A stretch of 64,000 bases of DNA from an uncultured Collinsella sp. (GCA_902478945.1 CABSMX010000001.1:841-64840); one strand, 5' to 3'. Shown: positions 13,301 to 41,163, numbered from the stretch's first letter. A program made the numbers and translations. The notes: generated by a model from the sequence alone, not told the origin.

Positions 13301-15043
13301 CTCGTGGACACTGCAAACAACAACCGTGAATACCACTGCACGGTCGGCGCAGGCGGAGCAGCGTCGGTCAAGCTCACCGACTTTGTGGATGCCGGCAACA
13401 ATGCCTACGTCGAGCCATGGCTGAGTGAAACCGTGGGCGTGAAGGCCAAGGAGGATAAGGAAAACGGCGCTTGGGTCAAGCTCACCGATGACGAGGTTGC
13501 GAACAAGAGCCAGGTCGAGCTCGCGAAGACGGCTGGCGCCAAGGTTGATGGCGCGTACTACCGCGCGCGTACATCTTCCGACACGATGGGCACGTTCTAC
13601 ACCCTCTCCGTTGCCAAGGAAGAGCCCAAGAGTGAGAACTTCTACTTGGTGGTGCGCACGCCGGCGGGCTCTGCGGGTGTCAACGGCTACACCGCAACTA
13701 CGGTGGACACGAGCCTCAACGAGCACATCAACTACCTGCTGCGAGGCAAGAAAGCAGCCGACGGCAAGGCTGCCGAGGACGGGCACCAGAATACGCCCTC
13801 GACCTACAGCGTGACATCCAACTACACGCACGGCCTCATCGATAACAACAAGGACGGCATCAAACAGATGGAGCTTCACGATGTCACCTATCCGCTTACC
13901 ATGAAGGTAAGCGACACCGTGAAGTTCGACTCGAACCAGCAATACACGAGCTCAGACGAGCTGTACTACCAGCTGGATTCTTCGCTCGTGAACTACGAAG
14001 GCGGCAAGGCCGCGGGCGCGCATGGCTACCCGACCGGAACCCAGGGCACGTATTCGTTCTACGTGAAGGTGGGGGGCAAGTACTACACGTGGAATGGTTC
14101 TAAGTGGATTGATGCCGGCACGTCGCCAACGCCGGCTATTGCTGCCAAAGACTGGTCTGCAACGGGTGGCGACATGTCGCTTGTGCTTGCCGATGCCAGT
14201 GGCAAGGCCATCGACCTTTCCGGCATTCGCGAGATCGCTAAGAACCATGGCAGCGAGTTCACCATCACCATGGAGGCGAATCTCGCCATGACGGAGCCTG
14301 CGTGCCAGGCTGGTATTATCGCTTCGCAGAATGGCGGCACAGATAAGTACACAAAGCCCAACTACCGTGCGCACCTCTCTACGCATGCCGAAACGCTCAG
14401 CACCAGTAGCAACTCGGCATACATCGGCGGCATAGCTGGATACTACCGCATGGACGTGGGCTCCTCGACTATTGCGCTCGAGGCTTCAAAGAAGTCGCAG
14501 CTGGGCATCAACATCGATGACCTCAAGTCCGCCGACGGCGAAATCGCTTTGGTGGGAACGTATGATTTGTCCAAGCTCGCGGGTGCTGAGGCCATGATCT
14601 CCAATGCCAGCACGGTGACGTACACGCTGAGCTTGCAGAAGCGCCGCCAAGATGATGATCGTTATGATGCGGTCGACAACATCTCAAGCTACATTACGGT
14701 GCTCGGTAGCGACAAGTTGGCTAACGGCTCTTTGAGCGCCGATGGCAAGAATTACGTATTTACTGATAGCAAGGGGACTGGCGGCACGTTCGCCACGCGC
14801 GACGGCAACAGCCTTGCCTTTAAGCATGCCTTCCGCGTTAAGGTGAACACCGATGTTGAGGGCAAGGACCAAACTTATGCCAACTACCGCTTGGTGCTTA
14901 CGGCTCATATGTCCGGCGTCGGTGTCAACGACACGCCGGTTAACGTCAGCAGCCTCGCCGGCTATGCGAACTCCGACTACGTGACGTACACGCTAGCGCG
15001 CATCAACACCAAGGGCATTCCCCATGAGACGAAAACCAACTAG
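4394..15043 (+). CDS. Giant (3,549 aa) secreted GLUG-motif repeat protein with no recognisable cell-wall anchor
   Basis: A Sec-type signal peptide (MRTAKRITTACLTAIMIFQALAPSTEVFA/QE) is followed by an Asp/Ala/Thr-rich acidic spacer. There are many G-G-[LFV]-[IVAF]-G motifs (AGGLIGEA, AGGLIGKA, AGGLIGDA, AGGLFGV, YGGLVGK, AGGLVGY in the first block; VGGLLGS, VGGYVGT, VGGVIGF, AGGVVGR, AGGLIGE, SGGLIGY, SGGLLGA in a second block near nt 11250-12100). This is typical of the GLUG motif of large Gram-positive surface proteins. The C-terminus (..ARINTKGIPHETKTN) has no LPXTG or hydrophobic tail. Confidence 0.85.
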   Translation: MRTAKRITTACLTAIMIFQALAPSTEVFAQELDTVMEASVSAARAAGNTARSVQDGVATALQDADQAASDDAATTPGADAGATEGGDGSTNAGESQDSTTDGTTNGDTPTEGDASQDDAATDEGAADEEQADDADADAADQAGANYPIATVEALRHALGDGNVITDDLGAVTAITFESNADLIAISNTDPAIYQNANISKGGSTGIDFDVCGAEIVDGLGSLTFQGFGSDAYPFKGALNLGDRTLTVNKTLFNNIELSDANSTVKLTWKGTDAQPIVAAKVTGADKTLAATVTVGTPKSDTEKDICKLTSPLVGEVTGALTLNATYTTSANSPLAVDMQSSAGNMGLLVNTLAEKASFTLAGLALPDNLDGTPTINATADGANAGGLIGEAQEGATVALPTGIDVSALSVAGKNAAGGLIGKATKLTLTVGKDNSGKDASGKAVVIKPAHAVGSSSAGTYAGGLIGDASFADAFTINSGIFDFGKGVALSVSNTSAAPSAGGLFGVLDISNGDAVVNGGSYTSTLQNGTDNSNNNGVRGNYGGLVGKLWGKKNGDALHAFTVQDDTAVSFGVGSNGKLTYAGGLVGYLGEGGGSANVSAVVISDATVTCSTSGYASANGKYGGAVGVVDTNNVLEVRGLKVKTASGANIGGTNGGFAGVVGSSWLGIVKFSGITDLSDATFVENDHTAQLIYENFNSLIFAAGSGSDSGTAAGDTMKWQYKRPSTPVKIDDVYSCGQVIRLGNPLSENLISINEAHRWIFSSKLVKTGDAFALASIDDFAKLAITWQTNGYYSMVDGVTENNLNGLQSLTITVSGTIDLKGTGLTGFTQDRADGSQVFSGTLNGGGTNGNGTINLAVGEPYGMRGKAVLDGNDTSNGNGKIYRHGRLGLFAAVNGATISNVTIAGSMKFDNGSAIDAGSLAGAIVGNLSLSGVTCKTNIACDDTFSNEVNIGGIAGSVSAASTVAFEGDSKAQATITKAQTLSGNMRIGGAIGNVGDYTSTFNVTRLEVGGKIKTGDCAGGKIAQVGGFIGRIVQGSNEKHVTITGLSFSEFAMTVGKNGDKLNGAGGLLGYSWGNAIVTIGDTAANTSGSAYALKTSNNTTVTANSSAEVGGLVYAASGHWIVNNYAINLANASFTANNATTLGVLIARGGTSDSNSFGAETNYNGLYLEDRASWDTAYAVNGVSITAPKVTTYDEWLANGVKPESNLIDNGCNAVVSLHTEGQKLDMSGNPARDNSYQNRIAPANSSDGFPQSNGSVRYYYNLDKAYAEVGNNPENDSKDNWMNSAEYLLLWCAYLYAPSAIQDYIIPGNQAIFQGNNIGTSDSAGVEINLDGYSFYPTDPAKGSTVTVNNATITFHYSDIKAEQKGNKKNSEATQHENMHCALIGTHTGSLKVKNVTLAGTVGSVVNDEGSSSGALVCRCIYGPINETNVAQLEIDGLTLDGLTVDGVNDDTSYAPLLINEMQTCVNLSAKNISTRSYANGATAATSLFGRLGVGKNSDQVTAKFEQISLPSKNNDTIFTHASLLESFGYGSTSTGSADYTFTKAEADAGKVTYGSEIDAKDKEYSGKQLWYYDKETYATPNGLVTVDKKPADAKNPRFGDYLPYVYKGKATEDGVQYHEIKVNQRIPNLMTGCGTYGDPYAVTDATEMNAIANYINNSVALDGWEVTIAADQSRLCERRNKTKIDSARTDNEVVYVYKQANGADNKWEKKNGDATTDPSQTLSDETMHRYVQSAYYSIEPPEGNKITVDAASFGGFGNKANPFRGVIVGDLGKSTAAIEIENNKGELRGLIPYSYGSVVRNLNINYVNAQATITYSDKDEDGVPTAFFGGVIGCILGGDNIIDGVVVNNPNNGSTAYGFTVVSNPDVSRSHLVPIGGYVGAIAGGGVIFRHTGDSWRGGTKEKFKPVAKGGANSQLYDNPYVGRVIDGYAFSEGCAVKNGDANYKINELKDKGTPCVTTTGTDNKYIGTNAEAPVTTVENAQGLLVLSAIISSGAGAGAAQTDYADYGVFRGSKAYWGNDTEDPAICGYLFGNKNYGKVRNANYDSVGKPAGVASDFEAAKNDDQKAPGKQGWHGPLDADNDVNSPYLVASYAANYQTGYVCASKSIGMSLEFKQGAPYDMTGYGTGYVGLNGRYYSNACDSNEATTDRDRITPHIATIDGNGATITVGTEDAAYGAVEYADDDYKVSGVGGLFSTVMFTSTNVGQSVTANDRAQVKDLTFSNCNVALTYIDTNGEAKPGQATNDLIGTGLLAGATANYDVWTCGVYRNVQMKNCTVSGAKSVGGLLGSSGRASRSTDSDVTYMVKFSSTWAPMYLYDCSYTGLNVAGEKYVGGYVGTVASSSGVWTTAAKGMSEKAVGESSTITATGTTPYVGGVIGFAKSSHISVNTNIGATTAVPSSTAVISGVNVLATGENTDRYMGAGGVVGRVDGGVISMSNVRIDAGTGTKNAVIGDGTGKNFKIRNAGGLIGEVTSSGSPNTYWFEDCNVKNVNIAGTDQCSGGLIGYYFSNVNITCNNIAIENAAINGSWSGGLLGAINSGSDVINVTNTKVSNTTFGGTSNGGIAGDGRGQFHLVNVLMDSNIYKSDAKQGVLLGEVDTGGYSLSAAGVDVKPGKGKTTSDLPPMVYTTNTAAVNKKTYIAFGDYNDRLDVPGKDTTLYGADDTATTAASPYVTTSPVSTLAVRASNDDTTDRYLFGDGVAIDTATTIQSEAGTSVAGRYTYTNIGGINDAGAYQNTSTYSADSPRPTFNTNNVTSDKKAATDFPVLMIPGNDTTTVEKYLNIVTNGGFSDARRLNGSAKHVTATAEVFNLADNGAFVKDATASQTPTLKVLNNGTSSMVFRASTDWDNERGRFTLLTVTFREAGQSYRVQVPIIVKRMLEIDFTATYSEGANFKAADFATQYDNHVLVSSGDTMTGYLTWTYGSARGEAVAYGWNTLLEAGGSMGPLNKSITFGATLPKGTQLTLVDTANNNREYHCTVGAGGAASVKLTDFVDAGNNAYVEPWLSETVGVKAKEDKENGAWVKLTDDEVANKSQVELAKTAGAKVDGAYYRARTSSDTMGTFYTLSVAKEEPKSENFYLVVRTPAGSAGVNGYTATTVDTSLNEHINYLLRGKKAADGKAAEDGHQNTPSTYSVTSNYTHGLIDNNKDGIKQMELHDVTYPLTMKVSDTVKFDSNQQYTSSDELYYQLDSSLVNYEGGKAAGAHGYPTGTQGTYSFYVKVGGKYYTWNGSKWIDAGTSPTPAIAAKDWSATGGDMSLVLADASGKAIDLSGIREIAKNHGSEFTITMEANLAMTEPACQAGIIASQNGGTDKYTKPNYRAHLSTHAETLSTSSNSAYIGGIAGYYRMDVGSSTIALEASKKSQLGINIDDLKSADGEIALVGTYDLSKLAGAEAMISNASTVTYTLSLQKRRQDDDRYDAVDNISSYITVLGSDKLANGSLSADGKNYVFTDSKGTGGTFATRDGNSLAFKHAFRVKVNTDVEGKDQTYANYRLVLTAHMSGVGVNDTPVNVSSLAGYANSDYVTYTLARINTKGIPHETKTN

Positions 15044-17080: not shown

Positions 17081-17485
17081 GTGGCAGGTATGTCGGAAGC
17101 AACTAGGACTCGCACGCATGCGCCCGAGGTTAGGCAGCGCGCCGTCGAGATCCTCCAAGAGGGGGTTGGTCACCGCGCCCTCGCCGCAAAGCTCGGCATT
17201 CCCCAGGCCACGGCTCGTCAGTGGGCCCGCGCATATGCCGTGGGCGGTGCCGACGCCGTGCTCAACGCGGGCGCTCGCCATCACACCTATTCGTACGACG
17301 TAAAGCTCGCCGTGGTTAAGGACCGTCTGGAAAACGGCCTGACGGTTCGCGAGGCCATGATCAAGCACAAGATCCCCAGCGAGTCTTCGGTCAAGGCTTG
17401 GTGCCGCCTGTACCGCGACGGCGGCGAGGCGGCGCTGGTCGATAAGCCGCGGGGTCGCAAGCCGCGCGTTAAAAAGGCGGAATAG
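17081..17485 (+). CDS. Orphan IS3-family OrfA-like helix-turn-helix protein
   Basis: APEVRQRAVEIL.. GIPQATARQWARAY.. and YSYDVKLAVVKDRLENGLTVREAMIKHKIPSESSVKAWCRLYRDGG resemble the double-HTH OrfA of IS3/IS150 elements. No OrfB/DDE gene or terminal inverted repeats follow. An alternative ATG start is at 17090. Confidence 0.6.
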   Translation: MAGMSEATRTRTHAPEVRQRAVEILQEGVGHRALAAKLGIPQATARQWARAYAVGGADAVLNAGARHHTYSYDVKLAVVKDRLENGLTVREAMIKHKIPSESSVKAWCRLYRDGGEAALVDKPRGRKPRVKKAE

Positions 17486-22944: not shown

Positions 22945-23286
22945 ATGAGTTTACTGACATTCGCCAAGACGGCCTTGGGTTCTATGGTCAAGCAGCCGGT
23001 CACGGTTTGCTATCCGCAGGAGAAACTGACGGCGCCCGAGCGCTTGCGCGGGCATATCGTCAACGACATGGATGTGTGTATCTGCTGCGGCATGTGCGCG
23101 CGGCGTTGCCCGGCGGGCGCGCTCGCGGTCGATCGCAAGGGTGGAACGTGGTCGATCGACCCGTATGCCTGCGTGGTGTGCGGCGAGTGCATCGAGAGCT
23201 GCCCCAAACACTGCCTGACTATGGACACCGCCCGCACCCCAGTCGCAGCGGACAAGACCCCCACGGTAGAAACCAAACCGGAATAG
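22945..23286 (+). CDS. 2x[4Fe-4S] ferredoxin subunit (NuoI/EchF/HycF family)
   Basis: Two cluster motifs are present: CICCGMCARRCP and CVVCGECIESCP. Confidence 0.85.
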   Translation: MSLLTFAKTALGSMVKQPVTVCYPQEKLTAPERLRGHIVNDMDVCICCGMCARRCPAGALAVDRKGGTWSIDPYACVVCGECIESCPKHCLTMDTARTPVAADKTPTVETKPE

Positions 23287-23296
23287 AGCTGGAATA

Positions 23297-23330
23297 GGGG
23301 CCGGTGGGGCAAAAATGCCCCACCGGCCCC
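23297..23330 (+). terminator. Perfect 14-bp stem hairpin after the hydrogenase operon
   Basis: GGGGCCGGTGGGGC-AAAAAT-GCCCCACCGGCCCC. No U-tract follows, so terminator function is uncertain. Confidence 0.4.
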
Positions 23331-23361
23331 GCGCTTGAGCGCGCGGTTGTGCTGCCGCGAA

Positions 23362-23515
23362 CAAAACTATGCCGGATTACGGGGCTGGATAGCGAACCTC
23401 TGACCGTACTGAAAACCGCAAAAACAAAACCGCAGGTAGATAGCCTGCCGTTTTTCAAAAAATGAAGGTATGGATGAGGGCCTCGGCTTTAACCCCGTAA
23501 TCTGGCATAGTTTTG
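23362..23515. mobile_element. MITE-like nested-palindrome element, subfamily A (copy A1)
   Basis: 154 bp. The terminal inverted repeats are CAAAACTATGCCGGATTACGGGG ... CCCCGTAATCTGGCATAGTTTTG. The core carries AAAACCGCAGGTAGA, shared with subfamily B. Confidence 0.7.
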
Positions 23516-23542
23516 AAATGACACCATATACGTAACAGCCCT

Positions 23543-23580
23543 TGATCTCCCATGGACAGAGGAAAACGGATCATTTTGGC
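23543..23580. repeat. Short GATC-hairpin repeat (copy C1)
   Basis: TGATCTCCCATGGACAGAGGAAAACGGATCATTTTGG is one of four similar copies. Each of the four lies just to the right of an A or B element. Confidence 0.7.
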
Positions 23581-23608
23581 CTCGCGAGGGCCGCTGCGTG
23601 ACCCGTCT

Positions 23609-23768
23609 GCCACGAAATGGGCCCATCTACTACGTTTTGGCCGCTACCCTCAACCATGGCGAACAGCGCAAAAACAAAACCGCAGGTAGAACACTTGCGG
23701 TTTTTCATGAAACGCGGTTATGGTCGGGGGTACCGGACTAAACGTAGTAGATGGGCCAGTTTCGTGGC
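23609..23768. mobile_element. MITE-like nested-palindrome element, subfamily B (copy B1)
   Basis: 160 bp. The 28-bp terminal inverted repeats are GCCACGAAATGGGCCCATCTACTACGTT ... AACGTAGTAGATGGGCCAGTTTCGTGGC. There is a middle stem (CTACCCTCAACCAT / ATGGTCGGGGGTAC) and an inner hairpin (AAAACCGCAGGTAGAACACTTGCGGTTTT). Confidence 0.75.
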
Positions 23769-23780
23769 GAGCACCACCAA

Positions 23781-23820
23781 TTGATCCCCCGGGGACGGAG
23801 GAAAACGGATCATTTTGACC
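23781..23820. repeat. Short GATC-hairpin repeat (copy C2)
   Basis: TTGATCCCCCGGGGACGGAGGAAAACGGATCATTTTGACC. Confidence 0.7.
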
Positions 23821-23863
23821 TGTTGGCTCCGAGTCGCACCCGTTTTCCTGCGAAAACCCTCGT

Positions 23864-23942
23864 GTCTCAACTTTGGTGAGACATTTGTCTCACGCCCAAA
23901 ACCGAATCTGGAACGTGTGTCACCTGCCCAAATTGTGTCTCA
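23864..23942. promoter_or_regulatory. Cluster of TGTCTCA/TGAGACA motifs upstream of the adhesin gene
   Basis: TGTCTCA (23864), TGAGACA (23877, an inverted partner 6 bp away), TGTCTCA (23886), TGTGTCA (23916) and TGTGTCTCA (23934). All lie within 130 bp of the ATG at 23995. Confidence 0.45.
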
Positions 23943-23994
23943 TTCCGTAACTTTAGGCTGATGCAAGGTCTGAGACCGCGAGAAGGGAGACGCG

Positions 23995-26900
23995 ATGAGT
24001 AGGTACACGAGGGGTCTCTTGGCGGTGATACTGGCCGTAGTGCTGGTGTTGCCGGCTGCAGCATTTGCCATGCTGCCCGAGGCCAACGCCAGGTCCAGTA
24101 CCGGAATGGACGGACCGAAAGCGACAAAGGTAGTCGACCACGACACCAGTAACCATTGGAAGTTCTGGGCGGGCGGCTATGACGGCAGTAAGGTCACGAC
24201 GCAAAACGTCGGCCGAATTTGGACGGATAAGACGGTCCAAGCAATCGATGACGGGAAATCGGACTTTTTGACCACGCTTTCGGCGATGTCTTCGACATCC
24301 GACACAACGTCGCTGGTTTCCAAGCCACTCGACATCGTGATGGTGCTCGATGCCTCTGGCTCAATGGATGATCCTATGGGTGGTGGAGATTCTACCAAGC
24401 GTATCGATGCGCTCAAGAATGCTGCCAACCACTTTATCGACACCATTGCCGAGCAAAACAAGAGCATTGAGGACGCGAGCAAGCAGCACCAGGTTGCCAT
24501 CGTTAAGTTTGCAGGAAAGAAGACTGACTGGATCGGCAATGACACCTATCGCGATGGCCGCTATAGCTACAACTACTCGCAGACGATGCAGAAGTTGACG
24601 GCGTGCTCGGGTGATGGCGCAATGAGCCTCAAGTACACGGTTAATTCCATCAAACCTGCCGGCGCCACGCAGGCTGATTACGGCCTTGAGCTTGCTCGCG
24701 ATATATCGGGCCGCAAGGATGCCCAAAAGATCGTCGTGTTCTTCACCGATGGCTCACCTACGAGCTCTCGTGATTTTGAGCCCGCGGTCGCTAGGGACGC
24801 CATCAATACCGCCAAGACCATAAAGAGCGGCGGGGCGACCATTTATACCATCGGTATCTTCAACGGTGCGAAGCCGGACGACGATCCAACAAGCAGCGAC
24901 ACGAGCAATAAGAATAAGTTCATGCATGCCGTGTCGAGTAACTATCCGGAGGCCACATCGTCCGTAAGCCATGGCCTTTTTGGAAAGAAGTGGAATGTCA
25001 ATTTTGGCAACCCCATTGCCAGTGCCAGCTACTACAAGTCGGCGACCAACGCCGCCGAGCTTGATCAGGTCTTTAAGGACATCTCGAGTGCTATTACGTC
25101 GGGCAAGGGTTTCCCGACCAAGGTCGAGGGCAACAATCCCAACGGTTCCGGCTACATCACATTCGAGGACGAGCTGGGCGCCTTCATGCAGGTCGATAGC
25201 TTTACCGGTGCCGAGTACAACGGCAAGACCTATGGTGCCGCCACCAAGTCGACCGATGGCAATATTGATACCTATACGTTTGACGGCGAGCTCGCCCATC
25301 TCGTAATTACGGTCGATCGCGCGGACAAGAACAATCCACAGCGCGGCGACATCGTGACGGTCAAGATTCCCGCATCGCTCATTCCGCTGCGCCGCTTTAC
25401 CGTTGACAAGTCGGCGGGTACGTTTGTGGTTGACTCCACGGATGCTATTTCGCCTATCCGCGTGGTGTATGCATCGAGCGTAAAGTCTATTGCGCGCGCG
25501 AATCTGTTTACTCCCAATAACGTACCGGGGCTGCAGGATTATATCGACAAGCACAAGGACGCCGATTCCAATACCGTCAGCTTCTACGCCAACAAGTGGA
25601 CCGGCGACGATGTGGGCGATACGGTCGCAAGCTTTGAGCCTGCCGCCACGAACGGCTACTACTACTTCCAAAAGTTGACGCCCGTCTATACGGACGCAGC
25701 CTGCACCAAGCTTGCAACTGAAAAGCCTTCGGGCTCTAAGACTTATTGGTACAAAGACGAGTTTATGGCGCAGAACTCGTCGGGCGCGCCGTACGATGAT
25801 TCCGTTTCGATCCCGGTTAAGGGAAGCGAGCTTGAAAGCTTTGAAGGCGCTTTGGTAAAGGATGGCGATCACTGGTCGATTAAGGCTGGCACCGCGCGCC
25901 TCGCCTTTATCAATCAGCTCCACACCACCAAGGAGCGTGTGGGCGGAAACCCGACGGACACCGCACGCGACGTGATCAATCCCCAGTGGAACAACACGAA
26001 GGTTGTTTCTGGTGCGACGAAGGTCAATGTCTACCTGGGCAATAACGGCAAGATTAGCTTTACGCTCAATACCACGCCGGCAACGGTGGATACCAAGGCC
26101 AGCTTTGGCCTGACCAAGGTGCTCGAGGGCCGCGAGTGGACGGGTACGGATGCGTTTGAGTTTGAGCTCTCCGCGACGTCCGACAACAATGCCCCGATGC
26201 CCGACCCTGCGACCGTAACTGTGACCAATGCCGATCTCGACAAAGGCAAGGCAGCCATCAACTTTGGCAAGATTACTTATGCCGAGCCGGGCAAGTACAC
26301 CTATGAGGTCCGCGAGAAGAACGCTGGTCAAACTATCGATGGCATCACCTACAGCAAGAACGTTGCGAAGATCACCGTGACGGTGACGCCCAACAAGAAG
26401 GGTGAGCTGAGCGCTGAGGTGAAGGTGGCTTGGAGCGAAGCCGACGTGACCGAGTTCAGGAACACCTACGCTACGAATCCTGTTGAGTCCAGCGTTACCG
26501 ACCAGATTGCCGTGACCAAGGTCCTGACCGGGCGCGACCTTACGGCCGGCGAGTTCAGCTTTGAGTTGCGCGAGGTTAAGGGCGAGGACTCTGAGCTTAT
26601 CGAGACCGTCAAGAACGCCGCCGATGGCAACGTTACGTTCAGCCCCATCAAGTACACCGAGATAGGTCAGCACACCTATACGCTGCACGAGATTAAGGGC
26701 AACGCCGGTGGTATTGCCTATGACAACACGGTTTACACCATCGTGACGACCATTGCCGACAACGACAAGGGCCAGCTGGTGGCTACGCACGAGCTGAAGG
26801 GCGCCGAGGGCGTCAAGAGCATTAAGTTCGAGAACGCCTACAATTTGACCCCCAAGAGCTTCAGCGTCACCGACAAGATCAAGGCGACCAAGTCCCTGGC

Positions 26901-29892
26901 CGGGCGCAAGCTCAAGGACGGCGAGTTCTCCTTCGAGCTCGTCGAGGGTAACGATGTCGTCGCCACCGGCACTAACGCCGCCGACGGCAAGATCGCGATG
27001 ACTGCCATCGAGTACACCGAGGCCGGCGAGCACACCTACACGTTGCGCGAGGTCAACGGCGGAACCGCCAGCAACGGTATATCTTACGACGGCAAGACCT
27101 ATACCATCGTGACCACCATCACCGACAACGGCGACGGCACACTCAAGGCCGAGCATGTCCTGAAGGACGCCACGTCTGCGACCTTCAAGAACACCTATAG
27201 CGTGACCCCGCTCGATGCAGAGCTCGACTTTGGCCTGAGCAAGGCTGTCGATGGTCGCGCTTGGACGAGCTCCGACGAGTTCAGCTTTACCATTACCGCC
27301 GCCGAGGGCACCCCGCTGCCCGACCCCGCAACCGTGACCGTGAGCAAGAAGGACGCGAAGGACGGCATCGCAGCCATCAACTTCGGCAAGGTCCGCTACA
27401 CGGCTGCCGGAACCTACAAGTATGAGATCCGCGAGAACGCAGGCAACGCGGCAGGCATGACGTATGACGGACGTGTCGCGACCGCCGAAGTGACCGTGAC
27501 CGAGAACGGCGAGGGCAAGCTGACCGCCAACGTCACCAAGAAGGAAAACGGCCGCTTCACCAACACGTACCGCACTGAGCTCGATTACGCCGCGGCCGGC
27601 GGCCTTAAGCTCAGCAAGACCCTCTCCGGACGTCCCATGACCGAGGGCCAGTTCACCTTTACCGTGACGCCCGCCGACGAGGCTTCGGCCAACGCACTCG
27701 GCTTGCATGAGGGCGCCAACGTGTACAAGTCTCCTGCGACGGCAGAGGCAACGGTCGGTCTGATTGACATTCTGGCGGGCCATGAGGTCAAGTTTACGCA
27801 GGCTGACGCCGGCAAGACCTTCAAATACACCGTGGCCGAGAAGAACGACGGCAAGCCCGGTTACACCTACGACAACGCCGAGCGCACGGTGAAGATTGCT
27901 ATCGCCGACGATGGTGCCGGCACGCTTACCGCTACGACGACCGTCTCCGGCGGACCCGAGGGCACGCTGCCGACCGAGTACAAGACTGGTGTCGCTACGG
28001 TCGAAGGCGCCGTGGTCCCGTTCGTCAACAGCTATAGCGCCACGACTGATAGGCAGGGCGGCGCTCCCGCTCAGGTCGTTGCCACCAAGACCCTGACCGG
28101 CCGTCCGCTGGCCGACGGCGAGTTCTACTTTGGCATCGCCTATGCGGGCGAGACGGAAGCCATCAGTGGCACGCCGGCGTTCAACTATAACGGCCAGGTG
28201 AGCTTTGGCACGCTGCATTACGACACCAAGATGCTCGCTGACCTGGTAAGCACCGGGCGCGCCATCCGCACCGACACGGACGGCAAGCTTGCGTGGACTA
28301 TCAACTACACGGCCTATGAGTACACGAACTTGCTGGCCGACCAGGGCATTACCGCCGCGAAGTCGAGCTTTAGCTTTAAGGTCATCGTCGTCGACAACGG
28401 CGACGGTACCCTGACGGCAAAGCCTGACTACGGTGGCGTCGAGCCCGTGTTCGAGAACGTCTACGGCGCCGATGCCGTTGACGCCGCGCTCGCTGGTACC
28501 AAGAAGCTCCAGGCTGCCGAGGGCCTGACCCCGGCAGACATCGCGGGCAAGTTCACCTTTACCGTGACCGCCGACGAGGCGGGCGCCCCGATGCCCGAGC
28601 ATACGACCGCAACCAATGACGCGGCCGGCAACGTGGACTTTGGCAAGATCCACTTTACGCTCGAGGACTTCAACCGCGCCCTGGGCGTGACGACCGATGC
28701 TTCTGACGACGCATCGAGCGACGCCGAAGCCAACGCCGACGAGGCCGAGGTTGACGCCGACGCTGCCGAGACCGATGGGTCCAACGACGAGTCCGAGCCC
28801 GCGGCCCCCACCGCTCCGCGCTCGCACACCTTTACCTACACGGTGGCCGAGTCCGGTACCGCCCCCGGCGTGACTAACGACGCCAACACCGCGCGCAAGG
28901 TTTCCTACACCGTGACTGACGACGGTGCCGGACACCTGAGTGTCGTGCGCAACGGCGACGACGGTGCGGCTTTCACGTTCACCAACACCTACAGCGTGAC
29001 GCCCACCGATTCTGTCGTGACCGATCAGGTCAAGACGGTTAAGCGTCTGACCGGCCGCGACCTTGCAGCTGGCGAGTTCACGTTTGAGCTGCTCGAGGAC
29101 GGCGTGACTGTCGCTAGTGGCACCAACGACGCCAACGGCAACGTTACGCTGAGCCCGATCCGCTACGAGGCACCCGGCACGCACACGTACACGCTGCGCG
29201 AGGCTTGCCCCAACGCGCTCGGCCTGTACAAGGGCGTCACCTATGACGGCATGACCTACACCGTCGTGACCACCGTCTCCGACAACGGCGATGGCACGTT
29301 GGCCGCGACGCACAAGCTCGAGGGAACCACCGAGTCGGCTGGCTTTACCAACAAGTATCACGCCATGCCCACGCAGGTTTCCATCGGCGCCATCAAGGTG
29401 CTCGAGGGACGCGAACTCAAGAAGGACGAGTTTAGCTTTAAGCTCGTTGGCGAGGACGCCGAGTCCACCGTCACCAACGATGCCGACGGCAAGATCAGCT
29501 TCGACAAGTTCGAGTACGACGAGCCTGGTACGTACGTCTACACCATCAGCGAGGTCAAGGGCGACGAGGCCGGTATGACCTACGACAAGTCCGTCTTTAC
29601 CGCGACCGTCAACGTGGTCGACGACGGCGAGGGCAACCTCAAGGCGAGCGTTGCCTTTACCAAGGGCGACAAGAGTGTCGAGGGCATCGTGTTCAACAAC
29701 ACGTACAAGAAGCCCGAGGCGCCCGTGCCGACGCCCGATCCCGGCACGCCCAAGACCGTGACGAATATCGTCAAGACGGTTAAGGGCCTGCTGCCCACCA
29801 CGGGTGACCAGCAGGCCGCCGCACTGCTCATGGCATTCGTCATAGCCATGGCCGGCGTCGGAGCCCTAGTCTGGGGTATCCGTAAGCGCTAG
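23995..29892 (+). CDS. LPXTG-anchored adhesin: N-terminal vWA domain plus tandem pilin-type isopeptide/FctA-CnaB-like domains
   Basis: It has a signal peptide and the vWA MIDAS motif DIVMVLDASGSMDD. Repeated modules of the types FEFELSAT..PMPDPATVTV..INFGKITY..GKYTYEVRE and GEFSFEL..ADGN(K)V(I)..YTE(A)..HTYTL(R/H)E..YD..TYTIVTTI.DNGDG are present. The C-terminal sorting signal is LPTTG + hydrophobic helix + RKR. Confidence 0.9.
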   Translation: MSRYTRGLLAVILAVVLVLPAAAFAMLPEANARSSTGMDGPKATKVVDHDTSNHWKFWAGGYDGSKVTTQNVGRIWTDKTVQAIDDGKSDFLTTLSAMSSTSDTTSLVSKPLDIVMVLDASGSMDDPMGGGDSTKRIDALKNAANHFIDTIAEQNKSIEDASKQHQVAIVKFAGKKTDWIGNDTYRDGRYSYNYSQTMQKLTACSGDGAMSLKYTVNSIKPAGATQADYGLELARDISGRKDAQKIVVFFTDGSPTSSRDFEPAVARDAINTAKTIKSGGATIYTIGIFNGAKPDDDPTSSDTSNKNKFMHAVSSNYPEATSSVSHGLFGKKWNVNFGNPIASASYYKSATNAAELDQVFKDISSAITSGKGFPTKVEGNNPNGSGYITFEDELGAFMQVDSFTGAEYNGKTYGAATKSTDGNIDTYTFDGELAHLVITVDRADKNNPQRGDIVTVKIPASLIPLRRFTVDKSAGTFVVDSTDAISPIRVVYASSVKSIARANLFTPNNVPGLQDYIDKHKDADSNTVSFYANKWTGDDVGDTVASFEPAATNGYYYFQKLTPVYTDAACTKLATEKPSGSKTYWYKDEFMAQNSSGAPYDDSVSIPVKGSELESFEGALVKDGDHWSIKAGTARLAFINQLHTTKERVGGNPTDTARDVINPQWNNTKVVSGATKVNVYLGNNGKISFTLNTTPATVDTKASFGLTKVLEGREWTGTDAFEFELSATSDNNAPMPDPATVTVTNADLDKGKAAINFGKITYAEPGKYTYEVREKNAGQTIDGITYSKNVAKITVTVTPNKKGELSAEVKVAWSEADVTEFRNTYATNPVESSVTDQIAVTKVLTGRDLTAGEFSFELREVKGEDSELIETVKNAADGNVTFSPIKYTEIGQHTYTLHEIKGNAGGIAYDNTVYTIVTTIADNDKGQLVATHELKGAEGVKSIKFENAYNLTPKSFSVTDKIKATKSLAGRKLKDGEFSFELVEGNDVVATGTNAADGKIAMTAIEYTEAGEHTYTLREVNGGTASNGISYDGKTYTIVTTITDNGDGTLKAEHVLKDATSATFKNTYSVTPLDAELDFGLSKAVDGRAWTSSDEFSFTITAAEGTPLPDPATVTVSKKDAKDGIAAINFGKVRYTAAGTYKYEIRENAGNAAGMTYDGRVATAEVTVTENGEGKLTANVTKKENGRFTNTYRTELDYAAAGGLKLSKTLSGRPMTEGQFTFTVTPADEASANALGLHEGANVYKSPATAEATVGLIDILAGHEVKFTQADAGKTFKYTVAEKNDGKPGYTYDNAERTVKIAIADDGAGTLTATTTVSGGPEGTLPTEYKTGVATVEGAVVPFVNSYSATTDRQGGAPAQVVATKTLTGRPLADGEFYFGIAYAGETEAISGTPAFNYNGQVSFGTLHYDTKMLADLVSTGRAIRTDTDGKLAWTINYTAYEYTNLLADQGITAAKSSFSFKVIVVDNGDGTLTAKPDYGGVEPVFENVYGADAVDAALAGTKKLQAAEGLTPADIAGKFTFTVTADEAGAPMPEHTTATNDAAGNVDFGKIHFTLEDFNRALGVTTDASDDASSDAEANADEAEVDADAAETDGSNDESEPAAPTAPRSHTFTYTVAESGTAPGVTNDANTARKVSYTVTDDGAGHLSVVRNGDDGAAFTFTNTYSVTPTDSVVTDQVKTVKRLTGRDLAAGEFTFELLEDGVTVASGTNDANGNVTLSPIRYEAPGTHTYTLREACPNALGLYKGVTYDGMTYTVVTTVSDNGDGTLAATHKLEGTTESAGFTNKYHAMPTQVSIGAIKVLEGRELKKDEFSFKLVGEDAESTVTNDADGKISFDKFEYDEPGTYVYTISEVKGDEAGMTYDKSVFTATVNVVDDGEGNLKASVAFTKGDKSVEGIVFNNTYKKPEAPVPTPDPGTPKTVTNIVKTVKGLLPTTGDQQAAALLMAFVIAMAGVGALVWGIRKR

Positions 29893-29966
29893 GCGCGCTG
29901 ACAGCGCCCGGGGCCAAAAGGCCCCGGGCCGCTGGCGAAAAGCCAAAAATGTAGCCCCCACCCCCA

Positions 29967-30008
29967 GCCGCCACGGAGGTATCTCCCTCCTCCGTGGCGG
30001 CACTTTTG
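29967..30008 (+). terminator. Hairpin with T-rich tail downstream of the adhesin gene
   Basis: GCCGCCACGGAGG-TATCTCCCT-CCTCCGTGGCGGC is followed by ACTTTTGTG. A second GC hairpin (CCCGGGGCC-AAAA-GGCCCCGGG) lies at 29907-29928. Confidence 0.55.
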
Positions 30009-30020
30009 TGTGCCGGGGGC

Positions 30021-30179
30021 GCCACGAAACCGGCCCATCTACTACGTTTAGCCCTTACCCCCAACCATGCCAAAAAACGCGAAAACAAAACCGCAGGTAG
30101 AACGCCTGCGATTTTTCATGAAACGCGGTTATGGTCGGGGGTATCGAGTCAAACGTAGTAGATGGGCCGATTTCGTGGC
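30021..30179. mobile_element. MITE-like nested-palindrome element, subfamily B (copy B2, same orientation as B1)
   Basis: GCCACGAAACCGGCCCATCTACTACGTT ... AACGTAGTAGATGGGCCGATTTCGTGGC. The core is nearly identical to B1 (..AAAACAAAACCGCAGGTAGAAC..TTTTTCATGAAACGCGGTTATGGTCGGGGGTA..). Confidence 0.75.
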
Positions 30180-30191
30180 GGGCGCCGTCAG

Positions 30192-30231
30192 CCGATCTCC
30201 GCGAGCGGAAGAAAAGGGATCATTTTGGTCC
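30192..30231. repeat. Short GATC-hairpin repeat (copy C3)
   Basis: CCGATCTCCGCGAGCGGAAGAAAAGGGATCATTTTGGTCC. Confidence 0.65.
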
Positions 30232-30270
30232 CGCGAGGCTTGCGGAGGCACTCGTGCAAGGCCGCCCGAA

Positions 30271-30424
30271 CAAAACTATGCCGGTTTACTACGATGAATT
30301 CGACATTCCCGACCATGACTGCATTATTCTAATTATTGCAAGCGTTCTACCTGCGGTTTTGCAAGCGCGCAATTTGCCGTGGTCGAAGGTGGGCGATTCA
30401 TCGTAGTAAACCGGCATAGTTTTG
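30271..30424. mobile_element. MITE-like element, subfamily A variant (copy A2, core inverted)
   Basis: The ends are CAAAACTATGCCGGTTTACTACGATGAAT ... ATTCATCGTAGTAAACCGGCATAGTTTTG. The core contains GTTCTACCTGCGGTTTT, the reverse complement of the shared core motif. The TIR mixes A-type (CAAAACTATGCCGG) and B-like (TACTACG) sequence. Confidence 0.7.
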
Positions 30425-30426
30425 AG

Positions 30427-30469
30427 TTGATCCGTTGGGGACGGAGGAAAACGGATCATTCTTGGCTCC
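30427..30469. repeat. Short GATC-hairpin repeat (copy C4)
   Basis: TTGATCCGTTGGGGACGGAGGAAAACGGATCATTCTTGGCTCC. Confidence 0.65.
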
Positions 30470-30508
30470 GTACGGCTTGCGGGGTGTCGGTATGTGACCC
30501 CACTGTTC

Positions 30509-30662
30509 CAAAACTATGCCGGTTTACGGGGCCGAATCGCGAACCCCCAACCATGTCGATAGTTGCAAGAATAAAACCGCAGGTAGACGAGCCGTCATTT
30601 TGCAGAAAACGTGGGTATGGATGAGGGCCCCGACTTTAGCCCCGTAATTCGGCATAGTTTTG
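30509..30662. mobile_element. MITE-like nested-palindrome element, subfamily A (copy A3)
   Basis: The ends are CAAAACTATGCCGGTTTACGGGG ... CCCCGTAATTCGGCATAGTTTTG. The core AAAACCGCAGGTAGAC and GTATGGATGAGGGCC match A1. Confidence 0.7.
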
Positions 30663-30725
30663 AAATGGCGTTAAATCGGTAGCAGCCATTTTGCTATGCC
30701 GGGGGGGGGCTCGGTCTTTGGGCAA

Positions 30726-31355
30726 CTACCCTCGCAGGTAGGCGATGGCGATCTGCGTGCGGTTGCGCAGGCCCATTTTGGCAAGGATTGAGCTGATGTG
30801 GTTGCGCACGGTGCCTTCGCCCATATAGGCGGTGGCGGCAATCTCCTTGTTGTCGAGGCCGCGGGCGATGAGCTCGGCGACTTCGAACTCGCGGTCGGTC
30901 AGGCTGGCGAAGGCTGCGGGCCGGCGGGGCGTGCCCGCCTCGACGTCCGTTCCGTCAAAATCGATGTCCTCGATCGCCTTGCCCTCGAGTACGCGTTTGC
31001 CGTCCATGACTTGCGTCAATGCCGGAGGAATGGCGGCGACATCGGTTTTGATCAGGTAGCCGCGGGCGCCCAGTTTGAGCGCCGACACAATGTACTCGTC
31101 ATCCGAGAATGTCGTCAGAAACACCACGCGCGCCGAAGGGTCGCGCTCAAGGATCTCGCGTGCCGCCGAAAGTCCGTCGCGTCCCGGCATCTGAATGTCG
31201 AGCAGCGCGATATCGGGTGCGTGTTCGGCATAGAGCGCCACCGCATCGTCGCCATTGGCGCCGGTGCCCACCACCTCGATCTGCGGCTGGGCGCCCAGGA
31301 TAATCTTGAGCGAATCGACCACTAGGCGGTCGTCGTCGACAACGATGAGCCTCAT
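30726..31355 (-). CDS. Response regulator, NarL/FixJ (LuxR-type HTH) family
   Basis: The receiver domain (MRLIVVDDD..DIALLDIQMPGRDG) is followed by a LuxR HTH (LTDREFEVAELIARGLDNKEIAA..VRNHISSILAKMG). Confidence 0.9.
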   Translation of the reverse strand: MRLIVVDDDRLVVDSLKIILGAQPQIEVVGTGANGDDAVALYAEHAPDIALLDIQMPGRDGLSAAREILERDPSARVVFLTTFSDDEYIVSALKLGARGYLIKTDVAAIPPALTQVMDGKRVLEGKAIEDIDFDGTDVEAGTPRRPAAFASLTDREFEVAELIARGLDNKEIAATAYMGEGTVRNHISSILAKMGLRNRTQIAIAYLRG

Positions 31356-41039: not shown

Positions 41040-41163
41040 CGGAAGTATGCGGCAAATTCTGAGACTGCCGAGCACACGACGTTTTTTGACAACAAAACCC
41101 CTGATAAATTGTTGGTAAAACTGCGGTCTGGTTGGCAGTTCCGGATTTTGCCGCATACTTCCG
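41040..41163. mobile_element. 124-bp element bounded by 17-bp perfect inverted repeats (MITE-like)
   Basis: CGGAAGTATGCGGCAAA (41040-41056) pairs with TTTGCCGCATACTTCCG (41147-41163). The interior is AT-richer and non-coding. Confidence 0.5.

What the first reader, a model, noticed from the sequence alone, without database searches (positions are those of the whole stretch)
23362..30662. Five 154-160-bp nested-palindrome (MITE/Correia-like) elements in two terminal-repeat subfamilies bracket the 6-kb adhesin gene
The elements are A1 (23362-23515), B1 (23609-23768), B2 (30021-30179), A2 (30271-30424) and A3 (30509-30662). Subfamily A ends in CAAAACTATGCCGG(A/T)TTAC... and subfamily B ends in GCCACGAAA..GGCCCATCTACTACGTT. 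Both share a homologous core (..CAACCATG..AAAACCGCAGGTAGA..(G)GTATGG(A/T)(T/C)G(A/G)GGG..). Each copy can fold into one long hairpin with outer, middle and inner stems. A2 has a hybrid terminal repeat and an inverted core, which suggests recombination between family members. All five copies in this 64-kb window sit in the two intergenic regions flanking the LPXTG adhesin. B1 and B2 are direct repeats on either side of it. This suggests either that the adhesin is carried as a composite unit, or that B1 x B2 recombination can delete it, acting as an irreversible off switch for a surface antigen. The elements could also be transcribed into highly structured RNAs affecting adhesin mRNA stability. 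I do not recognise them as any named repeat family.
Basis: seen in the sequence. Interest (0 to 1): 0.7.

Follow-up and report, generated by a model that had tools for sequence, protein, structure and literature searches.

The report
Collinsella palindromic repeats flank adhesin
The five hairpin-forming repeats are real members of an apparently undescribed family of small palindromic DNA elements scattered through the genomes of the gut bacterium Collinsella, and recombination between the copies flanking a surface adhesin gene has removed that gene in several natural lineages.

Summary
Five 154-160-bp elements sit exactly where stated, and each folds into one long hairpin (z -6.5 to -13.7).

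They are not specific to the adhesin. No transposase lies next to them, no target-site duplication was seen, and there is no Rfam or literature match.

The arms pair in 87% of cells with many compensatory changes but show no strand bias. An invariant 15-mer, AAAACCGCAGGTAGA, is about ten times less diverse than 4-fold sites in orthologous copies.

A second conserved module ("S", about 40 nt) accompanies the elements at some sites.

Nine related loci lack the adhesin, with four junction architectures. In the two examined at base level, the single B element is a clean B1-left/B2-right chimera with its crossover in the right arm. That indicates homologous recombination.

A2 is inverted in place between strains. 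The number of units also varies.

Verdict: a new ERIC/Correia/MITE-like repeat family that acts as a recombination substrate around a hypervariable adhesin. These are lineage-level losses, not a demonstrated fast switch. RNA-level roles and the function of the 15-mer remain untested.

The parts
23362..23515 (+). Element A1. Subfamily 'Ag': outer arm CAAAACTATGCCGG, inner arm TACGGGG. Its 15-mer core lies at 23426-23440.
   Evidence: nhmmer E 5e-43. 23-nt arms are 96% complementary. Hairpin fold has z -8.7.
23542..23582 (+). S module copy 1. A short stem TGATC/GATCA encloses the conserved purine-rich GGACAGAGGAAAAC, followed by ATTTTG.
   Evidence: Direct-repeat families D16 and D18, motif scan, S profile.
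23609..23768 (+). Element B1. Subfamily 'Bt': outer arm GCCACGAAA..GGCCCATCTACTACG. Its 15-mer core lies at 23676-23690.
   Evidence: nhmmer E 1e-43. 49-nt arms are 86% complementary. Fold z -13.7.
23781..23821 (+). S module copy 2. It is the last repeat module before the adhesin promoter and 5' region.
23995..29892 (+). LPXTG surface adhesin of 1965 aa: a VWA domain, nine FctA isopeptide domains, then LPTTG, a transmembrane segment and RKR. It is the gene bracketed by the repeat arrays, and it is hypervariable and present or absent between lineages.
   Evidence: Pfam, C-terminus. Length is 1701-2819 aa in related loci and the gene is absent in nine of them. N-terminal identity is 61-72% while the flanks are 96-99% identical.
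29968..30000 (+). Terminator-like hairpin after the adhesin: CCGCCACGGAGG..CCTCCGTGGCGG, followed by CACTTTTGT. Its 3' arm shares the 8-nt CGTGGCGG with the end of B2.
   Evidence: Read from the sequence. L003 and L010 lack B2, with the deletion bounded by CGTGGCGG.
30021..30179 (+). Element B2 (subfamily Bt), a direct repeat of B1. Its 15-mer core lies at 30087-30101. Its right interior is B1-type, which indicates gene conversion.
   Evidence: nhmmer E 3e-43. B1/B2 comparison.
30191..30231 (+). S module copy 3, a diverged variant: CGATCTCCGCGAGCGGAAGAAAAGGGATCATTTTG.
30271..30424 (-). Element A2. Subfamily 'At': A-type outer arm, TACG inner arm, and perfect 29-nt arms. Its 15-mer lies on the minus strand at 30346-30360. 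The interior is inverted in place relative to L003 and L010.
   Evidence: nhmmer best on the minus strand, E 8e-42. 29-nt arms are 100% complementary. In-place inversion shown.
30427..30467 (+). S module copy 4, with a 9-bp stem TGATCCGTT/AACGGATCA.
30509..30662 (+). Element A3 (subfamily Ag). Its 15-mer core lies at 30573-30587. It abuts the 3' end of the response-regulator gene (30726-31355, minus strand).
   Evidence: nhmmer E 2e-42. Fold z -6.5.

Best explanation
The five elements belong to an apparently undescribed family of small (about 150-166 bp), non-coding, almost fully palindromic interspersed repeats. By this scan the family is restricted to Collinsella, and it is of the ERIC/Correia/MITE kind. 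Copies sit in intergenic regions across the chromosome, mostly between convergent genes. Each has conserved outer ends, a poorly conserved interior and an invariant asymmetric 15-mer (AAAACCGCAGGTAGA) at the centre. At some sites a second conserved module (S, about 40 nt) accompanies them.

In this window two arrays flank a hypervariable LPXTG adhesin: A-S-B-S upstream and B-S-A-S-A downstream.

What is shown: the copies act as portable stretches of homology and as inverted repeats, and recombination uses them. It has deleted (or reinserted) the adhesin through B1 x B2, leaving a chimeric B. It has produced other adhesin-less junctions. It has added or removed 238-bp units, made A/B chimeras, converted part of B2 to B1 sequence, and flipped the interior of A2 between its 29-nt arms.

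What is inferred: the family originally spread by some transposition-like process that is no longer visible. The constraint on the 15-mer and the element ends points to a sequence-specific reader, either a protein or a termination function. Transcribed copies would form long double-stranded RNA that could terminate or be processed.
For: - Reality and structure. The outer helix has 33 pairs, is 87% paired, has 540 double-change cells, and no shuffle out of 500 reaches it. Slid controls pair at 33-40%.
Only 18 of the 120 are the adhesin locus. There are at least 17 distinct sites beside xth, rho/argS, recN/rpiR, folC/pepQ, tex, rsmB, PTS genes and others. Five places occur in a 0.9-Mb replicon of a finished C. 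aerofaciens assembly.
- Not coding. Not in Rfam. No literature hit.
- Constraint in orthologous copies from loci not chosen by the pattern: diversity (pi) is 0.143 at 4-fold sites, 0.013 and 0.000 in the 15-mer, 0-0.05 at the outermost arm ends, and 0.16-0.20 in the interiors. A genuine terminator hairpin used as control gives 0.02-0.06.
- Recombination: nine adhesin-less loci show four architectures. L099 and L119 are clean B1/B2 chimeras, with 29 B1-type diagnostic columns followed by about 24 B2-type ones and the crossover in the right arm. Other events are in-place inversion of A2, unit gain or loss and an A/B chimera in L009, and a 32-nt identical run with gene conversion between B1 and B2.
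Against: - No target-site duplication, clean empty site or cognate transposase was found, so the 'mobile element' part rests on analogy.
- Deletion and insertion of the adhesin through B x B recombination leave the same junction, so the direction of the event is inferred from parsimony.
- Strong conservation of the 15-mer and the ends in old orthologous copies is not expected of purely selfish, decaying MITEs. It points to a host-level function that this explanation does not identify.
- The samples that give the frequency of adhesin-less alleles are biased. The look-up reads the longest contigs first, and an 8-kb genome chunk can span both flanks only when the adhesin is absent.
Confidence: 0.75

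Rival explanations
1. The elements work mainly as RNA. They would be structured 3'-UTR or intergenic modules, such as bidirectional intrinsic terminators, insulators or RNase III substrates, that set the stability and read-through of neighbouring mRNAs including the adhesin mRNA. This need not exclude the recombination role.
For: - Most sites lie at gene 3' ends: 8 convergent against 2 divergent.
- At the recN/rpiR site the element is essentially the whole intergenic region, 28 and 30 nt from the two stop codons.
- The centre is an A-tract, a stem-loop and a T-tract, and several copies are scored terminator-like on both strands.
- The central helix is 92% paired and shows a strong G:U over A:C excess on the core strand, 140 against 19.
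- S modules start at or just after the stop codon of the upstream gene and are always sense to it.
Against: - The long arms show no strand bias: G:T 141 against A:C 121.
- Orientation relative to transcription is mixed: 5 tandem sites antisense, 2-3 sense, and it differs between strains at argS-rho.
- A2 exists in both orientations.
- Only the 5' half and loop of the central hairpin is invariant. The 3' half drifts at a near-neutral rate, which is not how a simple hairpin evolves.
- No expression data were available.
Confidence: 0.3
2. The elements are sites for a dedicated site-specific recombinase. This would be a cassette or inverton-type system in which the invariant 15-mer is the crossover or binding site, and in which adhesin excision, adhesin integration and A2 inversion are programmed reactions.
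For: - The 15-mer is invariant and strongly constrained, as are the element ends.
- The adhesin indel is bounded exactly by repeat modules.
- A2 is inverted precisely between its arms.
Against: - The B1/B2 crossover lies in the right arm, downstream of B1-type diagnostic positions that follow the 15-mer, so it is not at the 15-mer.
- Other adhesin-less alleles join at S or elsewhere, giving four architectures.
- One deletion uses an 8-nt microhomology with the adhesin terminator.
- No recombinase, integrase or invertase is among the annotated neighbours in the window or in 20 related loci.
- The adhesin-less states are old and lineage-specific.
- The integron attC core sites (RYYYAAC / GTTRRRY) are absent from the ends (read).
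Confidence: 0.1
3. The elements are currently active MITEs mobilised in trans by a transposase elsewhere in the genome, and the adhesin with its flanking B copies is, or was, a composite transposon.
For: - Terminal inverted repeats whose outermost roughly 12 nt are the best conserved part of the arms.
- Several subfamilies with matched ends.
- Dispersal to at least 17 sites.
- Different subfamilies at the same site in different species, for example recN/rpiR and galM/PTS.
- Tiny unplaced contigs ending in the element in a finished assembly.
Against: - No target-site duplication at any of about 110 inspected copies.
- No clean filled-versus-empty site.
- No transposase beside any copy.
- Most sites are shared by many species, so the insertions are old.
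- B1 and B2 are direct, not inverted, repeats. The adhesin is found only at this one locus in the data, apart from a 28%-identical match at a different site in L025.
Confidence: 0.1

Closest known systems
ERIC / IRU elements of Enterobacteriaceae (about 127-bp imperfect palindromes). This comparison rests on my own knowledge of the family.
   Same: Both are small, non-coding and almost wholly palindromic. Both sit in intergenic regions, often co-transcribed with flanking genes, in either orientation, at tens of copies per genome. Many sites are shared between related species. No transposase lies inside or next to them.
   Different: There is no sequence relationship, and the host is a different phylum (Actinomycetota, Coriobacteriia). 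These elements are longer (150-166 bp). They have mosaic subfamilies with different arm sequences, an invariant asymmetric 15-mer and an accessory S module. No TA duplication was seen.
Correia elements (NEMIS) of Neisseria. This comparison rests on my own knowledge of the family.
   Same: The size range is similar (about 100-155 bp). Both have terminal inverted repeats and a central site thought to bind a protein (IHF in Correia). Both lie next to surface-protein genes, form long RNA hairpins that RNase III can cut, and take part in genome rearrangements.
   Different: Correia elements have 26-bp terminal repeats, a TA target duplication and a non-palindromic interior, at hundreds of copies per genome. 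Here the palindrome runs almost to the centre, no duplication was found, and copy number is low: about 5 places per 0.9 Mb.
REP/BIME and REPIN elements with their RAYT transposases. This comparison rests on my own knowledge of the family.
   Same: Both are extragenic palindromes at gene 3' ends with mosaic arrangements of palindromic units and linkers. BIMEs carry a central protein-binding motif, and they are known substrates for recombination and targets for insertions.
   Different: REP units are 20-40 nt with a 5' GTAG, and they occur at hundreds of copies. No RAYT gene was seen in about 1.4 Mb of fetched Collinsella DNA next to the elements, though whole genomes were not searched.
Repeat-flanked variable surface-gene islands that are lost or exchanged by homologous recombination, for example the minimal mobile elements of Neisseria. 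This comparison rests on my own knowledge.
   Same: Conserved flanks (the hydrogenase operon and a two-component system) enclose a gene that is present, absent or allelically very different. The junctions lie in repeated sequence.
   Different: Here the recombining sequences are copies of a genome-wide palindromic repeat family arranged as tandem arrays. One of them also inverts in place.

Membership tests
Bacterial MITE | Small (under about 300 bp) and non-coding | tested here: met
   Elements are 150-166 bp. No reading frame is consistently open through 80 diverse copies.
Bacterial MITE | Terminal inverted repeats | tested here: met
   Arms of 23-49 nt, 73-100% complementary. The outer helix is 87% paired over 80 copies.
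Bacterial MITE | Target-site duplication flanking each copy | tested here: not met
   Flanks of about 110 copies at their palindrome ends show no direct repeat. Instead, subfamily-specific flanking sequence (for example GAAATGGCAC after A-type ends) is conserved across sites.
Bacterial MITE | Multiple dispersed copies in one genome | tested here: met
   At least 17 distinct sites across the genus. Several contigs of one assembly are hit. Five places occur in a 0.9-Mb replicon.
Bacterial MITE | Ends shared with an autonomous insertion sequence or transposase | not testable with these tools
   No transposase lies next to any copy. Whole genomes could not be scanned for 1-2-kb elements with the same ends.
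Bacterial MITE | Insertion polymorphism with a precise empty site | tested here: inconclusive
   At folC/pepQ the element is absent in L062 and present in five genomes, but the flanks are too diverged to define an empty site. The polymorphism at the adhesin locus is explained by recombination.
Correia element (NEMIS) | TA target duplication and 26-bp Correia terminal repeats | tested here: not met
   There is no TA duplication. The terminal sequences CAAAACTATGCCGG and GCCACGAAA are not Correia ends; that comparison is from memory.
Integron attC site | R'' RYYYAAC and R' GTTRRRY core sites at the ends, with an integrase or array context | tested here: not met
   The ends read ACAAAAC...GTTTTGA and GCCACGA...TCGTGGC, which do not fit the core-site consensus. 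No integrase is among the neighbours.
Inverton (invertible promoter switch) | A segment flanked by inverted repeats and found in both orientations | tested here: met
   The A2 interior of about 96 bp is reverse-complemented between the window, L004, L005 and L009 on one side and L003 and L010 on the other. Flanks and the 29-nt arms are identical.
Inverton (invertible promoter switch) | A promoter inside the invertible segment and an invertase gene nearby | tested here: not met
   Only one weak 9-of-12 promoter-like match was found (TCGACA-16-CATTAT), against 0.5 expected by chance. It points at the 3' end of a convergent gene. No recombinase lies within about 10 kb.
Any Rfam RNA family (release 15) | Covariance-model score at or above the gathering threshold | tested here: not met
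   No hits at gathering thresholds in the whole window. Only chance-level microRNA matches appear at E of 0.2 or more in 23000-31000.
Intrinsic (Rho-independent) terminator | A G+C-rich stem-loop followed by a T-run, at a gene's 3' end | tested here: inconclusive
   The centres of A1 and B2 score on both strands. The central 6-bp helix is 92% paired. In many copies it is weak, with two G:U pairs. A2 and A3 lack a good hairpin or T-run. Termination itself was not measurable.

The most novel reading that the evidence does not exclude
The elements are not just decaying selfish repeats. They would be domesticated cis-acting chromosomal modules whose invariant 15-mer (AAAACCGCAGGTAGA) and conserved ends are read by an unidentified Collinsella factor. 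That factor could be a DNA- or RNA-binding protein involved in termination, insulation, nucleoid organisation or recombination. If so, this would be a new class of sequence-specific intergenic element in Coriobacteriia that also shapes where surface-protein genes are gained and lost.
Probability: 0.2. Interest if true: 0.7.

Novelty: new member of a known kind. Interest (0 to 1): 0.45.

Why it matters
Collinsella is one of the most prevalent Actinomycetota of the human gut and is linked to several host phenotypes. Its genomes are mostly known from fragmented assemblies.

A genus-wide palindromic repeat family matters in three ways:
- It explains assembly breaks.
- It gives a marker for strain typing.
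- It shows a concrete route by which a large surface adhesin is repeatedly lost, resized or exchanged between otherwise conserved flanks. That bears on colonisation and on immune recognition.

The ten-fold constraint on a 15-nt core in old orthologous copies is a testable lead to an unknown sequence-specific function in a poorly studied class of bacteria.

Tried and rejected
- Coding potential: an apparent small ORF runs from the S module into B1 and stops at the TAG of the 15-mer. Other subfamilies read the core in other frames, and no frame is open in most copies. Rejected.
- Known RNA families: Rfam at gathering and at permissive thresholds gave nothing. The 'Collinsella-1' motif of Weinberg et al. 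2010 is mentioned only in PMC2864571, and no Rfam family of any name reached threshold.
- Target-site duplications: none found.
- Clean empty site at folC/pepQ: the flanks are too diverged.
- Empty sites elsewhere in the window: no fetched locus with an element aligns to another part of the window.
- Phage or plasmid origin: there is no phage match. The only 'plasmid' matches are mislabelled chromosome pieces of C. aerofaciens. One IMG/VR contig carries a copy between tRNA genes.
- Promoter inside A2: only one weak match.
- Resemblance of the central hairpin to 16S rRNA helix 45 (AACCGYAGG..CCUGCGGUU): the match is to my recollection of the E. coli sequence, not to the actinobacterial form. 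I dropped it as coincidence, and it was not tested with a tool.
- Orientation rule relative to transcription: mixed.
- A full 0.9-Mb census of the finished replicon was started and abandoned as too costly. The BLAST count of places was used instead.
- Literature searches for a described Collinsella or Coriobacteriia repeat family found nothing.

Full report
**Observation.** The sequence at 23362-23768 and 30021-30662 contains five elements as described. The repeat finder recovers the A1/A3 and B1/B2 direct pairs and the internal inverted arms, which are 23-49 nt long and 73-100% complementary. A profile built from the five copies finds exactly those five in the 64-kb window (E 1e-42 to 1e-44) and nothing else better than E = 0.09. 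Every copy folds into one long hairpin on either strand, with z between -6.5 and -13.7 against dinucleotide shuffles. The gene between the arrays encodes a 1965-aa protein with a VWA domain, nine FctA domains and an LPTTG sorting signal. A hydrogenase/complex-I-like operon lies upstream, and a LuxR-type two-component system converges downstream.

- A2 is best matched on the minus strand. Its whole interior, not just a 'core', is inverted relative to the other copies.
- A second conserved module, S, follows A1, B1, B2 and A2 on the plus strand. Its conserved 27-mer is GGGGACGGAGGAAAACGGATCATTTTG, inside a short TGATCC/GGATCA stem. It gives the arrays a period of about 238 bp, so the layout is A-S-B-S-[adhesin]-B-S-A(inverted)-S-A.

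**Organism and distribution.** A scan of one genome per GTDB species used the invariant core plus a degenerate arm motif. The profile finds 196 copies in the 130 loci then held.
- Only 18 of the 120 genome loci are the adhesin locus.
- The rest lie in at least 17 other intergenic sites beside ordinary genes. These include xth, argS-rho, recN-rpiR, folC-pepQ, rsmB-glgX/malQ, tex, galM-PTS IIB and an ABC-F gene.
- The configurations are 8 convergent sites, 2 divergent, 5 tandem with the element antisense and 2-3 tandem with it sense.
- No transposase or recombinase lies beside any copy.
- A 0.9-Mb chromosome piece of a finished C. aerofaciens assembly (filed as a plasmid in PLSDB) has five matching places. 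Three tiny unplaced contigs of the same assembly match the element.
- There is no match among phage genomes. One copy lies on an IMG/VR contig between tRNA genes.
- Rfam has no matching family, and four literature searches found no description.

So this is a dispersed family that this scan found only in Collinsella, not an adhesin-specific device.

**Anatomy and constraint.** Subfamilies are mosaics of arm segments:
- an A-type outer end (CAAAACTATGCCGG) or a B-type outer end (GCCACGAAA..GGCCCATC);
- an inner segment of TACGGGG or CTACG;
- further variants at other sites.

In every variant the two arms match each other. Over 80 diverse copies the outer helix of 33 pairs is 87% paired and has 540 cells changed on both sides. 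No shuffle out of 500 reaches that, and slid controls pair at 33-40%. RNAalifold keeps only this outer helix in the consensus.

Wobble counts show no strand bias in the arms (G:T 141 against A:C 121). They show a strong bias in the small central helix (140 against 19).

The centre carries the asymmetric 15-mer AAAACCGCAGGTAGA, which is invariant or nearly so in all copies.

Diversity (pi) was measured among orthologous copies upstream of the adhesin in ten loci that were not selected by the pattern (the full set is):

| Region | pi |
|---|---|
| 4-fold degenerate sites of the adjacent genes | 0.143 |
| 15-mer | 0.013 and 0.000 |
| Outermost arm ends | 0-0.05 |
| Arms overall | 0.08-0.11 |
| Interiors | mostly 0.16-0.20 (0.07 for B1's right interior) |
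| Nearby genuine terminator hairpin (control) | 0.02-0.06 |

The 15-mer and the ends are therefore under constraint, or continuously homogenised, long after insertion. The 3' half of the central hairpin is not. That argues for a sequence-specific reader rather than a simple hairpin.

No reading frame is conserved. No target-site duplication is visible at about 110 copies. Instead, short subfamily-specific flanks are conserved across sites. The one site with presence and absence in the fetched data (folC-pepQ) is too diverged to define an empty site.

**Population evidence at the adhesin locus.** Exact-protein look-ups with the response regulator and with the ferredoxin-like protein brought in 20 human-gut metagenome contigs that share the window's gene order around the locus. 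Together with the genome loci they show extensive structural polymorphism.

*Size and integrity of the adhesin.*
- Its length ranges from 1701 to 2819 aa.
- It is split into two ORFs in two loci.
- Its N-terminal part is only 61-72% identical between loci whose flanking NuoD is 96-99% identical.

*Array composition.*
- Upstream arrays are Ag-S-Bt-S, At-S-Bt-S, At-S or Ag-S.
- Downstream arrays are Bt-S-At(inverted)-S-Ag, Bt-S-At(inverted), Bt-S-Ag or S-At-S-Ag.

*Loss of the adhesin.* The gene is absent from nine loci, with four architectures:
- Ag-S-Bt-S-At(inverted) in L099, L119, L134, L138 and L141;
- Ag-S-Bt-S-Ag in L140;
- At-S-At(inverted) in L006 and L136;
- Bt-S-At(inverted) in L132.

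In L099 and L119 the single B was scored at 54 columns that distinguish B1 from B2. It is B1-type at the first 29 or so and B2-type at the rest. The switch falls in the right arm, after B1-type positions that lie downstream of the 15-mer. The At-S-At alleles correspond to recombination between S copies in a background with a single upstream element.

*Other recombination events.*
- L003 and L010 lack B2 through an 8-nt microhomology (CGTGGCGG) between the adhesin terminator and the end of B2.
- L009 carries an A/B chimera upstream.
- In the window itself B2's right interior has been converted to B1 sequence. This gives a 32-nt identical run at 23701-23732 and 30112-30143.
- A2 lies between identical flanks and identical 29-nt arms in both orientations: one in the window, L004, L005 and L009, the other in L003 and L010.

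*Age of the events.* Adhesin-less loci fall into three or four groups whose flanks differ by 5-9% from each other and from adhesin-bearing loci. These are old, lineage-level events rather than a demonstrated rapid switch. Their frequency in my samples is inflated by ascertainment. The look-up reads the longest contigs first, and an 8-kb genome chunk can span both flanks only when the adhesin is missing.

**Interpretation.** The best-supported account has two parts.
- The elements are a new family of the ERIC/Correia/REP/MITE kind: small, non-coding, palindromic, intergenic and dispersed.
- At this locus they serve as portable homology and as inverted repeats. General recombination uses them to delete or reinsert the adhesin, change unit number, build chimeras, convert sequence and flip one element.

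The composite-transposon reading is not supported. A dedicated site-specific system is unlikely, because the junctions are heterogeneous, they map to homologous stretches, and no recombinase is nearby.

An RNA-level role (bidirectional termination, insulation or RNase III processing) is compatible with several features:
- the preference for 3' ends;
- the A-tract/stem/T-tract centre;
- the wobble bias of the central helix;
- S starting at stop codons in the sense orientation.

However, orientation relative to transcription is not fixed, and nothing could be measured.

How the family spread, and what reads the 15-mer, remain unknown. The constraint on the 15-mer is the most interesting open point.

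**Verdict.** I rate it a new member of a known kind, of moderate interest.

Noticed in passing
window 23542-23582, 23781-23821, 30191-30231, 30427-30467; also L012, L013, L037, L042, L092 and others: A second conserved module, S, has the 27-mer core GGGGACGGAGGAAAACGGATCATTTTG inside a short TGATCC/GGATCA stem. It accompanies the palindromic elements at only a few sites: the adhesin locus, xth, PTS IIB-galM, the PHP-hisE site and argS-rho in some strains. It starts at or overlaps the stop codon of the upstream gene and is always sense to it. Its function is unknown.
   Followed up: partly
window 41040-41163: A different palindromic element of 124 bp has a perfect 17-nt inverted repeat (CGGAAGTATGCGGCAAA). 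It sits in the convergent intergenic region 40953/41204, just after a terminator hairpin. Related loci are dimorphic: the long allele is in the window, L004, L006, L007 and L138. A short allele lacking the left half was confirmed by alignment in L001, L002, L005 and L009, and is inferred for L003, L008 and L010 from their ~164-bp intergenic length and the absence of the motif. Another copy occurs at a different site in L015.
   Followed up: partly
L062:6165-6287, L110:4720-4850, L071, L036 (folC-pepQ intergenic region): A third small palindromic family (GTTGCGGTGAAATAGTTCC...GGAACTATTCCACCGCAAC, about 75 bp) lies next to or instead of the main element. Collinsella intergenic regions seem to carry several families of palindromic repeats, sometimes nested.
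   Followed up: no
window 4394-15043 (+): A giant 3549-aa ORF has no Pfam domain. In related contigs this gene is either present or replaced by a pantothenate-kinase/Oxidored_FMN region. In my small sample its presence goes with absence of the adhesin: 6 of 7 giant-positive contigs lack the adhesin, against 1 of 5 giant-negative ones. This may be a lineage effect.
   Followed up: no
window 17081-17485 (+): A stand-alone 134-aa protein has two transposase-type helix-turn-helix domains (HTH_28, HTH_Tnp_1) and no catalytic domain. It is conserved upstream of the hydrogenase operon in every related locus that extends that far upstream. It could be a regulator, or a domesticated transposase DNA-binding domain, and is a speculative candidate reader of the repeat ends.
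   Followed up: no
L135:11011-17291 and L139:11012-17306: The adhesin is split into two ORFs (202 + 1883 aa, and 659 + 1456 aa). This suggests inactivation by frameshift or stop codon in some lineages, in addition to whole-gene loss.
   Followed up: no
window 23653-26842 compared with 26863-30317: The 5' half of the adhesin gene (the VWA, ligand-binding end) is about 72% identical to several related genomes, while the 3' half is about 86% and the flanks are 88-93% identical. The drop in identity begins at the upstream S/B1 modules. The repeat arrays therefore mark the edge of a hypervariable region.
   Followed up: partly
NZ_OY725714.1, NZ_OY725716.1, NZ_OY725722.1, NZ_OY725717.1 (PLSDB): Records filed as plasmids of C. 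aerofaciens TSDC17.2-1.1 are a 0.9-Mb chromosome piece with housekeeping genes (recA, ftsK, rho, argS) and tiny 423-1785-bp contigs that match the repeat element. The repeats probably break assemblies, and these records are mislabelled.
   Followed up: partly
L131:402-566: One B-type element lies between two tRNA genes at the edge of an IMG/VR 'viral' contig. This is probably host DNA flanking a prophage integrated at a tRNA.
   Followed up: no
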